A stretch of DNA of 64,000 bases from Escherichia coli (GTDB lineage: Bacteria; Pseudomonadota; Gammaproteobacteria; Enterobacterales; Enterobacteriaceae). Location of the stretch: NCBI RefSeq assembly GCF_001677475.2, contig NZ_CP015229.1; one strand, written 5' to 3'. Below are positions 46,236-49,200 of the stretch, piece after piece. The position numbers were made by a program. Every line of letters starts with the position of its first letter. The stretch's first letter is position 1.

Positions 46236-49200
46236 TTAATTCCACTGTGAAAACGAATATTTATTTTGCGTTCCCGTTTGTTTTATTTTTGTTAACATTT
46301 AATATAATTATTATTAACCTCGTGGACGCGTTAATGGCTAACTCATAATGGGTATTCAATAAGCTGTATTCTGTGATTGGTGTCACATTTTTGTTTCGGG
46401 TGAATAGAGGATGTTTTTCCGTTAATTTTTGTTATTAATCAGTTTGTTATGCTCTTTTGTGAGTAAAAAAATAGCATCTGACTTTCAATATTGGTGATCT
46501 ATAAAACAATATTGAAAATTTCTTTTTGCTACGCCATTTTTTCAATATTGGTGAGGGACTTAACAATATTGAAAGTTGGATTTATCTGCGTGTGACATTT
46601 TCAATATTGGTGATTAAAGTTTTATTTCCAAATTAAAGGGCGTGATATCTGTAATTAACACCACCGATATGAACGACGTTTCCTTCATGATTTCTGGAGA
46701 TGCAATGAAGATTATTACTTGCTATAAGTGCGTGCCTGATGAACAGGATATTGCGGTCAATAATGCTGATGGTTCATTAGACTTCAGCAAAGCCGATGCC
46801 AAAATAAGCCAATACGATCTCAACGCTATTGAAGCGGCTTGCCAGCTAAAGCAACAGGCAGCAGAGGCGCAGGTGACAGCCTTAAGTGTGGGCGGTAAAG
46901 CCCTGACCAACGCCAAAGGGCGTAAAGATGTGCTATCGCGCGGCCCGGATGAACTGATTGTGGTGATTGATGACCAGTTCGAGCAGGCACTGCCGCAACA
47001 AACGGCGAGCGCACTGGCTGCAGCCGCCCAGAAAGCAGGATTTGATCTGATCCTCTGTGGCGATGGTTCTTCCGACCTTTATGCCCAGCAGGTTGGTCTG
47101 CTGGTGGGCGAAATCCTCAATATTCCGGCAGTTAACGGCGTCAGCAAAATTATCTCCCTGACGGCAGATACCCTCACCGTTGAGCGCGAACTGGAAGATG
47201 AAACCGAAACCTTAAGCATTCCGCTGCCTGCGGTTGTTGCTGTTTCCACTGATATCAACTCCCCACAAATTCCTTCGATGAAAGCCATTCTCGGCGCGGC
47301 GAAAAAGCCCGTCCAGGTATGGTCGGCGGCGGATATCGGTTTTAACGCAGAGGCAGCCTGGTCAGAACAACAGGTTGCCGCGCCGAAACAGCGCGAGCGT
47401 CAGCGCATCGTGATTGAAGGCGACGGCGAAGAACAGATCGCCGCATTTGCTGAAAATCTTCGCAAAGTCATTTAATTACAGGGGATGCTATGAACACGTT
47501 TTCTCAAGTCTGGGTATTCAGCGATACCCCTTCTCGTCTGCCGGAACTGATGAACGGTGCGCAGGCTTTAGCTAATCAAATCAACACCTTTGTCCTCAAT
47601 GATGCCGACGGCGCACAGGCAATCCAGCTCGGCGCTAATCATGTCTGGAAATTAAACGGCAAACCGGACGATCGGATGATCGAAGATTACGCCGGTGTCA
47701 TGGCTGACACTATTCGCCAGCACGGCGCAGACGGTCTGGTGCTGTTGCCAAACACCCGTCGCGGCAAATTACTGGCGGCAAAACTGGGTTATCGCCTTAA
47801 AGCGGCGGTGTCTAACGATGCTAGCACCGTCAGCGTACAGGACGGTAAAGCGACAGTGAAACACATGGTTTACGGTGGTCTGGCGATTGGCGAAGAACGC
47901 ATTGTCACGCCGTATGCGGTACTGACCATCAGCAGCGGCACGTTCGATGCGGCTCAGCCAGACGCGTCACGTACTGGCGAAACGCACACCGTGGAGTGGC
48001 AGGCTCCGGCTGTGGCGATTACCCGCACGGCAACCCAGGCGCGCCAGAGCAACAGCGTCGATCTCGACAAAGCCCGCCTGGTGGTCAGCGTCGGTCGCGG
48101 TATTGGCAGCAAAGAGAACATTGCGCTGGCAGAACAGCTTTGCAAGGCGATAGGTGCGGAGTTGGCCTGTTCTCGTCCGGTGGCAGAAAACGAAAAATGG
48201 ATGGAGCACGAACGCTATGTCGGTATCTCCAACCTGATGCTGAAACCTGAACTGTACCTGGCTGTGGGGATCTCCGGGCAGATCCAGCACATGGTTGGCG
48301 CTAACGCGTCGCAAACCATTTTCGCCATCAATAAAGATAAAAATGCGCCGATCTTCCAGTACGCGGATTACGGCATTGTTGGCGACGCCGTGAAGATCCT
48401 TCCGGCGCTGACCGCAGCTTTAGCGCGTTGATCCACTCTGGCAGGGCTGCATTTCGGCCCTGCCGCTGACAGGGAGCTCTTATGTCCGAAGATATCTTTG
48501 ACGCCATCATCGTCGGTGCAGGGCTTGCCGGTTCGGTTGCCGCACTGGTGCTCGCCCGCGAAGGGGCGCAAGTGTTAGTTATCGAGCGTGGCAATTCCGC
48601 AGGTGCCAAGAACGTCACCGGCGGGCGTCTCTATGCCCACAGTCTGGAACACATTATTCCAGGTTTCGCCGAATCTGCCCCCGTAGAACGCCTGATTACC
48701 CATGAAAAACTCGCGTTTATGACGGAAAAGTCAGCGATGACTATGGACTACTGCAACGGTGACGAAACCTCGCCATCCCAGCGTTCTTACTCTGTTTTGC
48801 GCAGTAAATTTGATGCCTGGTTAATGGAGCAGGCCGAAGAAGCGGGCGCGCAGTTAATTACCGGGATTCGTGTCGATAACCTCGTACAGCGCGATGGCAA
48901 AGTCGTCGGTGTAGAAGCCGATGGCGATGTGATTGAAGCGAAAACGGTGATCCTTGCTGATGGGGTGAACTCCATCCTTGCCGAAAAGTTGGGGATGGCA
49001 AAACGCGTCAAACCGACGGATGTGGCGGTTGGCGTGAAGGAACTGATCGAGTTACCGAAGTCGGTTATTGAAGACCGTTTTCAGTTGCAGGGTAATCAGG
49101 GGGCGGCTTGCCTATTTGCGGGTTCCCCCACCGATGGCCTGATGGGCGGCGGCTTCCTTTATACCAATGAAAATACCCTGTCGCTGGGGCTGGTTTGTGG

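What the first reader, a model, noticed from the sequence alone, without database searches (positions are those of the whole stretch)
46483..46609. Two complete and one half copy of an 11-bp inverted repeat with 13-bp spacer in the caiT-fixA divergent region
Read directly: TTTCAATATTG-N13-CAATATTGAAA occurs twice, starting at ~46483 and ~46540, with a lone TTTCAATATTG at ~46599. The core CAATATTG is itself palindromic, and the two full sites are about 57 bp apart, between the divergent cai and fix operons. This matches what I recall of CaiF activator half-sites (11-bp inverted repeat, 13-bp spacer). The orphan third half-site nearest fixA is the part I cannot assign.
Basis: partly seen in the sequence, partly recalled or inferred. 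Interest (0 to 1): 0.35.

Follow-up and report, generated by a model that had tools for sequence, protein, structure and literature searches.

The report
CaiF operator sites at cai–fix promoters
The two full repeats are the already published docking sites of the carnitine regulator CaiF between the cai and fix operons, and the "orphan" half-copy is a deeply conserved part of the fix promoter itself, most likely one more CaiF contact point.

Summary
TTTCAATATTG occurs five times in 64 kb, all inside 127 bp. It forms two perfect 11-N13-11 palindromes (46483-46517, 46540-46574) and one lone copy (46599-46609). Chance expectation is 0.06 copies.

The locus is the caiT/fixA divergent region of an Escherichia genome, 98% identical to E. 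coli K-12, with all five half-sites identical. Accessible papers give exactly this sequence as CaiF sites F1 and F2, so that part is already known.

New here is the orphan. In 54 of 55 Enterobacterales cai-fix regions, a lone "left-arm" module TTCAATATTGGTGA is present. It heads a roughly 30-bp block that is the best conserved part of the fix side (1.7-1.9 bits per column against about 0.4 in the flanks). Where a full site exists, the module lies 59-61 bp downstream of the nearest one. The number of full palindromes varies from 0 to 3. Edwardsiella, Hafnia, Serratia, Limnobaculum, Leminorella and Budvicia have only the lone module; a caiF gene lies within the fetched DNA in all of these except Serratia, whose contig is short.

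The module sits inside the predicted fix core promoter, either in the -35/-10 spacer or on the -35 position. My reading is a promoter-embedded CaiF half-site. This resembles GrlA, a member of the same Pfam family as CaiF, which is reported to act in the LEE1 promoter spacer. Binding and the fix transcription start were not verifiable here.

The parts
38568..38963 (+). caiF, the gene for the 131-aa carnitine-pathway activator that recognises the repeats
   Evidence: ORF. The E. coli annotation has the same gene order. Pfam CaiF_GrlA scores 28.4 bits against a cutoff of 25. Residues 4-62 align to GrlA, PDB 4KT5 chain C, E=0.001.
44718..46232 (-). caiT, first gene of caiTABCDE
46372..46387 (.). 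Perfect CRP-type palindrome TGTGATTGGTGTCACA, centre 46379.5. This places the cai transcription start near 46338 if the site is at -41.5.
   Evidence: Zero mismatches to TGTGA-N6-TCACA. PMC3680233 quotes a site at -41.5 of the cai promoter and ArcA sites at -101, -91, +28 and +50; I checked by eye in the sequence that these fit a start at 46338. The right half TCACA is kept in most Enterobacteriaceae; the left half is TGTGA, TGTTA or TGTAA.
46483..46517 (.). CaiF site F1: TTTCAATATTG-GTGATCTATAAAA-CAATATTGAAA
   Evidence: Sequence identity with the published F-site formula. The arms are identical to K-12.
46540..46574 (.). CaiF site F2: TTTCAATATTG-GTGAGGGACTTAA-CAATATTGAAA. A CRP-like GGTGA-N6-TAACA is nested in it (centre 46557.5).
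   Evidence: This is the full site nearest fixA in every genome that has one.
46599..46613 (+). Lone left-arm module TTTCAATATTGGTGA, the 'orphan' half-site (11-mer 46599-46609)
   Evidence: Present in 54 of 55 Enterobacterales cai-fix intergenic regions, and exact over 14 nt in 49 of them. Followed by GTGA in 56 of 57 copies, as left arms are and right arms never are.
46599..46628 (+). Conserved ~30-bp block: (T)TTCAATATTG GTGA y N3 (A)G GT(T/A)TTATTT. This is the fix core-promoter block.
   Evidence: Information content over 20 genera: 1.77 bits per column (half-site), 1.93 (GTGA) and 1.66 (positions 20-29), against 0.44 upstream and 0.35 downstream.
46592..46620 (+). Predicted sigma-70 fix promoter GTGACA-17-TAAAGT. 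The lone half-site fills most of its spacer.
   Evidence: Consensus scan. Shimada et al. 2014 predicted the same hexamers inside an experimentally found RpoD-holoenzyme binding peak (PMC3946193). Hexamers with A at position 2 and T at position 6 occur in this register only in the six genera of the E. coli clade.
46623..46628 (+). Alternative -10 register: TATTTC here, TATTTT in 10 of the other 14 genera. With this register the half-site lies on the -35 position.
   Evidence: in 13 of the 14 genera outside the E. coli clade the hexamer here has A at position 2 and T at position 6.
46641..46660 (+). Second, weaker conserved block cGTGATATCTGTAATTAACA (consensus c.TG.TAt.T.Tatt)
   Evidence: 0.94 bits per column. 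It starts with ATG or GTG in all 20 genera, but the pattern of variation is not codon-like (by inspection). Function unassigned.
46705..47475 (+). fixA, first gene of fixABCX

Best explanation
The 127-bp stretch is the CaiF-dependent control region shared by the divergent caiTABCDE and fixABCX operons. The two perfect palindromes are the published CaiF operators F1 and F2. They lie upstream of both promoters and are protein-binding DNA, not RNA.

The orphan is neither debris nor a broken third palindrome. It is a left-arm-type CaiF recognition element (TTCAATATTGGTGA) built into the fix core promoter.

In the E. coli clade it fills the 17-bp spacer of GTGACA-N17-TAAAGT. That puts it at about -28 to -18 if the start is at 46627. 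In most other genera the best -10 hexamer lies 8 bp further downstream, and the module then sits on the -35 position.

I infer that one CaiF DNA-binding domain docks there next to RNA polymerase and is the proximal step of fix activation. The upstream palindromes would then be auxiliary sites that raise local CaiF occupancy and serve the distant cai promoter. F2 is always 59-61 bp away, and the number of palindromes ranges from 0 to 3.

Shown: the sequence, the position relative to genes, the conservation, the co-occurrence with caiF, and the family link to GrlA. Inferred: CaiF binding at the lone half, the direction of its effect, and the exact promoter geometry.
For: (1) F1 and F2 match the published formula exactly and are identical to K-12 in all arms.

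(2) The lone module is present in 54 of 55 species-level cai-fix regions from 20 genera, and is exact over 14 nt in 49. It is 4-5 times more informative per column than its flanks.

(3) It carries the left-arm signature GTGA in 56 of 57 copies. Left arms of full sites have GTGA or TTGA in 85 of 85 cases, and right arms never do.

(4) The spacing from the nearest full site is 59 bp (35 genomes), 60 (4) or 61 (1). In Proteus the array is exactly periodic at -283, -224, -165 and -106.

(5) Eleven genomes have no full palindrome and only the lone module: Edwardsiella, Hafnia, Serratia, Limnobaculum, Leminorella and Budvicia. All but Serratia show a caiF gene within the fetched DNA. Over the 20 sequences aligned (19 loci plus the window; Serratia not included), the CaiF residues reported as DNA contacts (Y11, V42, N43, T46, Y47, R75) are invariant or show only V/I and T/S changes (residues from PMC12083890).

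(6) The module occurs nowhere else in 1.15 Mb of flanking sequence at up to 1 mismatch.

(7) It lies inside the only promoter-like site found on the fix strand, within a region that binds RpoD holoenzyme in genomic SELEX.

(8) CaiF belongs to Pfam CaiF_GrlA and aligns to GrlA. GrlA is reported to activate LEE1 P1 by binding a non-dyad target in the -35/-10 spacer (PMC10877973; PMC4730234; PMC4856446).
Against: As quoted in the accessible papers, the published footprints name only two CaiF sites, F1 and F2. If the probe covered the fix promoter, an isolated half-site was not stably bound by CaiF alone.

The fix transcription start (46627; 289 bp from the cai start; CRP-like site at -69.5) rests on my memory of Buchet et al. 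1998 and EcoCyc. It could not be checked because the papers are not held. The promoter geometry is therefore predicted, not measured.

The predicted E. coli spacer is 17 bp, which is optimal. A MerR/GrlA-type realignment is therefore not obviously needed.

The LEE1 P1 spacer (TTTAATGATAATGTATTT) shows no clear similarity to the module.

A protein bound between -35 and -10 more often represses than activates.

Part of the conservation must come from promoter function itself.
Confidence: 0.6

Rival explanations
1. The block is conserved only as a core-promoter element read by RNA polymerase. It would act as a weak -35-like TTCAAT, spacer and -10/discriminator. The upstream left arms resemble it only because F1 and F2 arose by tandem duplication of a promoter-containing unit of about 59 bp. 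On this view CaiF does not bind the lone copy.
For: The lone copy lies inside the predicted promoter. The units are regularly spaced at 57-59 bp, and the unit sequences after the arms are also similar (family D1: 75% over 51 nt). Only two footprints are reported.
Against: The 14 nt conserved in the lone copy are the same 14 nt conserved in footprinted left arms, including GTGA. Two unrelated constraints would have to select the same sequence in 20 genera. The hexamer registers shift by 8 bp between clades while the module does not change. In the genomes without any palindrome CaiF would have no site at all, although a caiF gene is seen in all of them but the short Serratia contig.
Confidence: 0.15
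2. The lone half-site is a negative site. CaiF bound between -35 and -10 would occlude RNA polymerase. This could happen in the absence of inducer or at high CaiF concentration. The effect would be to keep fix silent or to cap its expression.
For: The position at -28 to -18 in the predicted E. coli promoter is a classical repressor position. No second arm is present, which would suit weak, concentration-dependent binding.
Against: In 11 genomes it is the only CaiF-type motif in the region. A purely negative role would leave the activator without an activating site there. In 13 of the 14 genera outside the E. coli clade the geometry is -35-overlapping, which is typical of activators. GrlA, from the same Pfam family, activates from the spacer.
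Confidence: 0.13
3. The lone copy is not independent. It pairs with the right arm of F2 (CAATATTGAAA-N24-TTTCAATATTG, an everted pair). CaiF would then bind as a continuous co-operative array across L1-R1-L2-R2-L3.
For: Inverted pair I7. The R2-to-L3 distance is 35-37 bp, similar to the 31-35 bp between neighbouring full sites. The periodicity in Proteus is strict at 59 bp.
Against: The lone module persists unchanged in genomes with no F2 at all. Distances between sites drift by a few bp (31-37) whereas the spacing within a site is invariant. This reading is compatible with, rather than opposed to, the best explanation.
Confidence: 0.07
4. The lone copy is a neutral relic of a third palindrome whose right arm decayed, or part of a CRP site (TGTGACATTTTCAATA, centre 46598.5).
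For: The sequence could be read as a truncated third unit. The CRP-like match has 3 mismatches out of 10.
Against: Near-perfect conservation across 20 genera, with flanks that diverge freely, excludes neutrality. The TGTGA half is confined to the E. coli clade and would be centred at about -28.5. The module is conserved where no TGTGA exists.
Confidence: 0.03

Closest known systems
CaiF operators F1 and F2 of the E. coli cai-fix regulatory region (Buchet et al. 1999, as quoted in PMC12083890 and PMC3680233)
   Same: The sequence formula TTTCAATATTG-N13-CAATATTGAAA is identical, there are two copies, the intergenic region is the same, and the arms are identical to K-12.
   Different: Nothing differs for the two full sites apart from single-base changes in the N13 spacers. 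The lone module has only the left arm plus GTGA, lies inside the fix core promoter, and is not mentioned in the papers I could read.
GrlA at the LEE1 P1 promoter of EHEC/EPEC (Islam et al. 2011, as quoted in PMC10877973, PMC4730234 and PMC4856446)
   Same: The regulator belongs to the same Pfam family, CaiF_GrlA. Its target is non-dyad and located between the -35 and -10 hexamers of the activated promoter. A (T/G)TGACA hexamer lies immediately upstream in both.
   Different: The LEE1 spacer is 18 bp and suboptimal, whereas the predicted fix spacer is 17 bp. There is no evident sequence similarity between the two spacers. CaiF additionally has upstream palindromic sites. Spacer binding by CaiF is inferred, not shown.
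Class II activator sites that overlap the -35 element (for example CRP at -41.5, as at the neighbouring cai promoter)
   Same: In 13 of the 14 genera outside the E. coli clade the best -10 hexamer places the module on the -35 position of a promoter without a good -35.
   Different: It is a single 11-15 bp half-site rather than a dimer site. The geometry is predicted only, and in the E. coli clade it is shifted 8 bp into the spacer.

Membership tests
CaiF operator (F-type site) | Perfect or near-perfect 11-bp inverted repeat TTTCAATATTG / CAATATTGAAA separated by 13 bp | tested here: met
   46483-46517 and 46540-46574 are exact. The formula is as printed in PMC12083890.
CaiF operator (F-type site) | The same feature, applied to the third copy at 46599 | tested here: not met
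   The right arm is absent, with 7 of 11 mismatches at the N13 distance. The copy is a half-site only and is not filed as a third F site.
CaiF operator (F-type site) | Location in the divergent caiT-fixA control region of a genome that encodes CaiF | tested here: met
   Gene order is caiF-caiEDCBAT / fixABCX. The intergenic region is 98% identical to K-12.
CaiF operator (F-type site) | Physical binding by CaiF (gel shift, DNase I footprint) | not testable with these tools
   Known for K-12 F1 and F2 only through citations. Nothing is known for the lone half.
GrlA/MerR-like activation from the promoter spacer | Activator is a CaiF_GrlA family protein | tested here: met
   Pfam PF07180 scores 28.4 bits against a cutoff of 25. 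GrlA, PDB 4KT5 chain C, aligns with E=0.001.
GrlA/MerR-like activation from the promoter spacer | Target lies between the -35 and -10 hexamers of the activated promoter | tested here: inconclusive
   This holds for the predicted GTGACA-17-TAAAGT promoter. No transcription start could be verified, and other genera favour a register in which the module overlaps the -35 position.
GrlA/MerR-like activation from the promoter spacer | Over-long, suboptimal spacer (18 bp for LEE1 P1, 19-20 bp for MerR targets) | tested here: not met
   The predicted spacer is 17 bp. The mechanism may still resemble GrlA's in where the protein sits, but not in spacer realignment.
CRP site | TGTGA-N6-TCACA with conserved halves | tested here: not met
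   For the lone copy, TGTGACATTTTCAATA has 3 of 10 mismatches and its left half is clade-restricted. The feature is met only by 46372-46387, with 0 mismatches.
Structured RNA / Rfam family | Match to a curated covariance model | tested here: not met
   The only hit is a chance snoRNA match, E=0.08 and 18 bits against a gathering score of 75. Nothing relevant was found in three distant loci.

The most novel reading that the evidence does not exclude
The lone half-site module, not the palindromes, is the ancestral and essential CaiF operator. A single CaiF DNA-binding domain would dock inside the fix core promoter, on the -35 position or in the spacer, and activate from there as GrlA does at LEE1 P1. 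F1 and F2 (0 to 3 copies) would be later duplications of the unit of about 59 bp that act as auxiliary or enhancer-like sites. If so, promoter-embedded, non-dyad binding would be the shared mode of action of the CaiF/GrlA family.
Probability: 0.35. Interest if true: 0.5.

Novelty: already known. Interest (0 to 1): 0.3.

Why it matters
The two palindromes add nothing new: they are the textbook CaiF sites in one more Escherichia genome.

The orphan matters modestly. It is the single best conserved element of the control region, and it is the only CaiF-type motif in several families of Enterobacterales. It sits where RNA polymerase binds. It is therefore likely to be the point at which CaiF actually switches on fix.

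This would explain how a 131-aa activator works. It would also link CaiF mechanistically to GrlA, a virulence regulator of the same Pfam family.

There is a practical side as well. Carnitine biosensors are built on the fix promoter and CaiF (PMC12083890). The module is an obvious and so far untouched target for tuning them.

Tried and rejected
(1) Tandem Repeats Finder reported nothing. The 57-59 bp units are too diverged outside the arms.

(2) I tested whether the cai promoter spacer carries an analogous half-site (ATTCAATAAGC, 46354-46364). It is not conserved; only CATAATGGGTATTC is. Rejected.

(3) I compared the LEE1 P1 spacer with the module. I confirmed my remembered LEE1 sequence (100% match, about 115 bp upstream of ler) but found no convincing similarity.

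(4) I looked for extra copies of the module near caiF or elsewhere. There are none at up to 1 mismatch in 1.15 Mb. The one-mismatch 11-mers elsewhere in the window, including 38666 inside caiF, are roughly what chance gives: 6 against 1.77 expected (sd 1.38, largest 8 in 100 shuffles).

(5) An RNA-motif reading found nothing in Rfam.

(6) I tried to read Buchet 1998 and 1999, Walt & Kahn 2002 and a dRNA-seq paper to verify the transcription starts. None are held. A numeric text search was useless.

(7) I considered a leader peptide starting at the conserved ATG/GTG (46642). Variation falls on first codon positions and the ORFs end after 4-19 codons, with no conserved length. I do not favour a coding reading.

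(8) My first fixA translation was off by one base. This was corrected.
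Full report
**Observation**

Exact TTTCAATATTG lies at 46483(+), 46507(-), 46540(+), 46564(-) and 46599(+), and nowhere else in the 64-kb window. Five copies compare with 0.06 expected, and none of 100 dinucleotide-preserving shuffles reaches five (with one mismatch).

The copies form two perfect 11-N13-11 palindromes, at 46483-46517 and 46540-46574, with starts 57 bp apart. A lone copy sits at 46599-46609. The lone copy has no partner: at the N13 distance, 7 of 11 bases differ from CAATATTGAAA. All three left arms share 15 nt, TTTCAATATTGGTGA.

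**Where it is**

caiT is 44718-46232 on the minus strand. fixA starts at ATG 46705. The mechanical ORF list extends the frame to a GTG at 46642. The gene order is caiF, caiEDCBAT, then fixABCX on the other strand, as annotated in E. coli. caiF is at 38568-38963.

The 472-bp intergenic region is 98% identical to E. coli K-12 MG1655 41932-42402, with one indel, and all five half-sites are identical. It matches 5391 of 5426 complete E. coli genomes at 90-99%. The CaiT protein is 99.6-100% identical to that of Escherichia albertii NBRC 107761. I therefore name only the genus.

**What the two full sites are**

[quoted passage not shown] PMC3680233 says the same. Both cite Buchet et al. 1999, which I could not open.

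A perfect CRP-type palindrome, TGTGATTGGTGTCACA, lies at 46372-46387. PMC3680233 places a site at -41.5 of the cai promoter and ArcA sites at -101, -91, +28 and +50. Read against the sequence by eye, these positions fit a cai start at about 46338.

From memory only (Buchet et al. 1998, EcoCyc), the two starts are 289 bp apart and a CRP-like site lies at -69.5 of fix. That gives a fix start at about 46627. It also makes the GGTGA-N6-TAACA nested in F2 (centre 46557.5) that CRP-like site. The three remembered numbers are mutually consistent with the sequence, but they are not verified.

On this geometry F1 and F2 lie between the two starts. They are untranscribed, protein-binding DNA. Rfam gives nothing.

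**The orphan: comparative evidence**

A scan of one genome per species with CaiT returned 80 loci. Of these, 54 Enterobacterales loci have caiT and fixA divergent. I reoriented their intergenic regions and scanned them.

- A lone module TTCAATATTGGTGA (up to 2 mismatches, no right arm) is present in 54 of 55 regions, counting the window. It is exact in 49. The exception is Entomohabitans.
- In Escherichia, Citrobacter, Salmonella, Phytobacter, Pseudocitrobacter, Intestinirhabdus, Yokenella, Pluralibacter, Atlantibacter, Trabulsiella, Proteus and most Providencia it begins 103-109 bp before the fixA ATG. Citrobacter sedlakii (92 bp) and Providencia heimbachae (139 bp) are the outliers.
- The number of full palindromes varies: 0 in 11 genomes, 1 in 11, 2 in 25 and 3 in 8.
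- Where a full site exists, the lone module starts 59 bp (35 genomes), 60 (4) or 61 (1) after the nearest one. In Proteus the array is strictly periodic, at -283, -224, -165 and -106.
- Edwardsiella, Hafnia, Serratia, Limnobaculum, Leminorella and Budvicia have no palindrome at all. They carry only the module, in the context yTTCAATATTGGTGATCyAGGTATTATTTTG, 264-349 bp before fixA. Budvicia has two copies 27 bp apart.
- These genomes still encode CaiF within the fetched DNA, at 45-52% identity; the short Serratia contig is the one exception.
- In an alignment of 20 CaiF sequences from as many genera (Serratia not included), the residues reported as DNA contacts (Y11, V42, N43, T46, Y47, R75) are invariant or show only V/I and T/S changes.

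With one genome per genus (20 genera), information content is as follows:

| Segment | Bits per column |
|---|---|
| 40 nt upstream of the half-site | 0.44 |
| 11-mer half-site | 1.77 |
| GTGA | 1.93 |
| Positions 20-29 (GGTtTTATTT) | 1.66 |
| 13 nt that follow | 0.35 |

The module is of the left-arm type. GTGA follows it in 56 of 57 copies. Left arms of full sites are followed by GTGA or TTGA in 85 of 85 cases. The inner flank of right arms is variable and is never GTGA. No copy with up to 1 mismatch exists outside the intergenic region in 1.15 Mb of flanking DNA.

The orphan is therefore under strong purifying selection. It is at least as conserved as any arm of F1 or F2, and it is the only CaiF-type motif in part of the order.

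**Relation to the promoter**

The only sigma-70-like site on the fix strand is GTGACA-17-TAAAGT, at 46592-46620. Shimada et al. predicted the same hexamers inside a region that binds RpoD holoenzyme, and H-NS, in genomic SELEX (PMC3946193). This agrees with the remembered start at 46627. The half-site then occupies -28 to -18, most of the spacer.

The registers differ across genera. Hexamers with A at position 2 and T at position 6 occur at 46615-46620 only in the six genera of the E. coli clade. Those genera also have GTGAC(A/T) 17 bp upstream, and they have lost the final T of the downstream hexamer (TATTTC). In 13 of the other 14 genera the hexamer at 46623-46628 has A at position 2 and T at position 6; it is TATTTT in ten of them. 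That register puts the module (TTCAAT) on the -35 position of a promoter that has no good -35. The exception, Serratia, instead has TATTAT at 46620-46625, like four other distant genera.

Whichever register applies, the module lies inside the core promoter.

**Mechanism**

CaiF passes the Pfam CaiF_GrlA threshold (28.4 bits against 25). Its residues 4-62 align to GrlA in PDB 4KT5 (E=0.001). GrlA is reported to activate LEE1 P1 by binding a non-dyad target in the 18-bp spacer between -35 and -10 (PMC10877973; PMC4730234; PMC4856446). I confirmed the LEE1 P1 sequence TTGACA-TTTAATGATAATGTATTT-TACACA upstream of ler.

I therefore propose that the lone module is a promoter-embedded CaiF half-site. 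It would be the proximal contact through which CaiF activates fix. The palindromes would be auxiliary sites.

The points against this proposal:
- Only two footprints are reported.
- The predicted spacer is already 17 bp, so spacer realignment is not needed.
- There is no sequence similarity to the LEE1 spacer.
- Spacer binding usually represses.
- Part of the conservation must reflect promoter function itself.

The rivals are scored in the report sections: a promoter-only element, a repressive site, pairing with the right arm of F2, and a relic or CRP site. Neutral decay is excluded by the conservation. The CRP reading fails because the TGTGA half is restricted to one clade.

**Comparison and novelty**

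F1 and F2 are members of the known CaiF operator class by sequence, location and identity with K-12. Binding itself cannot be tested here.

The lone copy fails the defining palindrome test. I do not file it as a third F site. It works, I infer, like the GrlA target or like a -35-overlapping activator site.

I found no mention of it in the papers I could read, but I could not read the primary footprinting papers.

**Verdict**

The finding as written is already known biology, correctly recognised. The orphan is a real, conserved and probably functional element whose role is open to direct test. Interest is 0.3.

Noticed in passing
window 46641-46660; loci L022, L043, L046, L049, L050 about 33 nt after the lone module: A second conserved block, c.TG.TAt.T.Tatt, lies about 33 nt after the half-site (0.94 bits per column). 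It begins with ATG or GTG in all 20 genera and opens tiny ORFs (MVFLL.., MVLIY.., MLILY..). In the window the GTG at 46642 is in frame with fixA. Variation falls on first codon positions, so a DNA or RNA site seems more likely than a peptide. By eye, its reverse complement in the window contains an ArcA-box-like TGTTAATTACA.
   Followed up: partly
L022, L043, L046-L053: caiT-fixA intergenic regions of 650-770 bp: In Edwardsiella, Hafnia, Serratia, Limnobaculum, Leminorella and Budvicia the lone module lies 264-349 bp upstream of fixA. This implies a long fix leader or an additional element. The last ~25 nt before fixA (TTATATTGCCTATCGGAGAAGTG) are conserved among most of them. Leminorella and Limnobaculum carry a CAATATTGAAA about 35 nt before the ATG. 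The one Rfam scan I ran, on the Edwardsiella, Hafnia and Limnobaculum loci, found no family there.
   Followed up: partly
window 46380-46409 versus 46590-46619: These form a 30-nt direct repeat at 70% identity (GTGTCACATTTTTGTTTCGGGTGAATAGAG / GTGTGACATTTTCAATATTGGTGATTAAAG). The DNA next to the cai CRP site resembles the fix -35 plus lone module. It may be a decayed further copy of the unit.
   Followed up: no
window 46550-46565 and 46493-46508: CRP-like motifs are nested in the N13 spacers of F2 (GGTGAGGGACTTAACA, 2 mismatches) and F1 (3 mismatches). CaiF and CRP sites would therefore overlap. The GTGA is equally conserved in the lone module where no CRP partner half exists, so it probably belongs to CaiF recognition.
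   Followed up: partly
L025 (Yokenella regensburgei), intergenic region of 324 bp: This is the shortest cai-fix region. The CRP-type palindrome is missing. By eye, the single full CaiF site sits about 30 nt from the cai -10-like CATAAT, so one palindrome appears to serve both promoters at close range.
   Followed up: no
window 38666-38676 (inside caiF): TTTCGATATTG, a one-mismatch copy of the half-site, lies in the caiF coding sequence (codons F-D-I-E). One-mismatch copies elsewhere in the window number 6 against 1.77 expected (sd 1.38; largest shuffle value 8), so this one is probably chance.
   Followed up: partly
CaiF protein, residues 68-76 (window 38769-38795): The motif GRGCQCQRL is almost invariant across CaiF from 20 genera, more conserved than the N-terminal helix-turn-helix region. 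The core GCQCQR never varies; only Budvicia changes the first R to S, and two genera have M for the final L. The paired cysteines in a regulator that works under anaerobiosis are not explained in what I read.
   Followed up: no
hit H12, NZ_CP051219.1 (E. coli SFE8): In one complete E. coli genome the match to the intergenic region stops at query position 248, just before F1. This suggests an insertion or deletion that separates the cai promoter from the CaiF sites.
   Followed up: no
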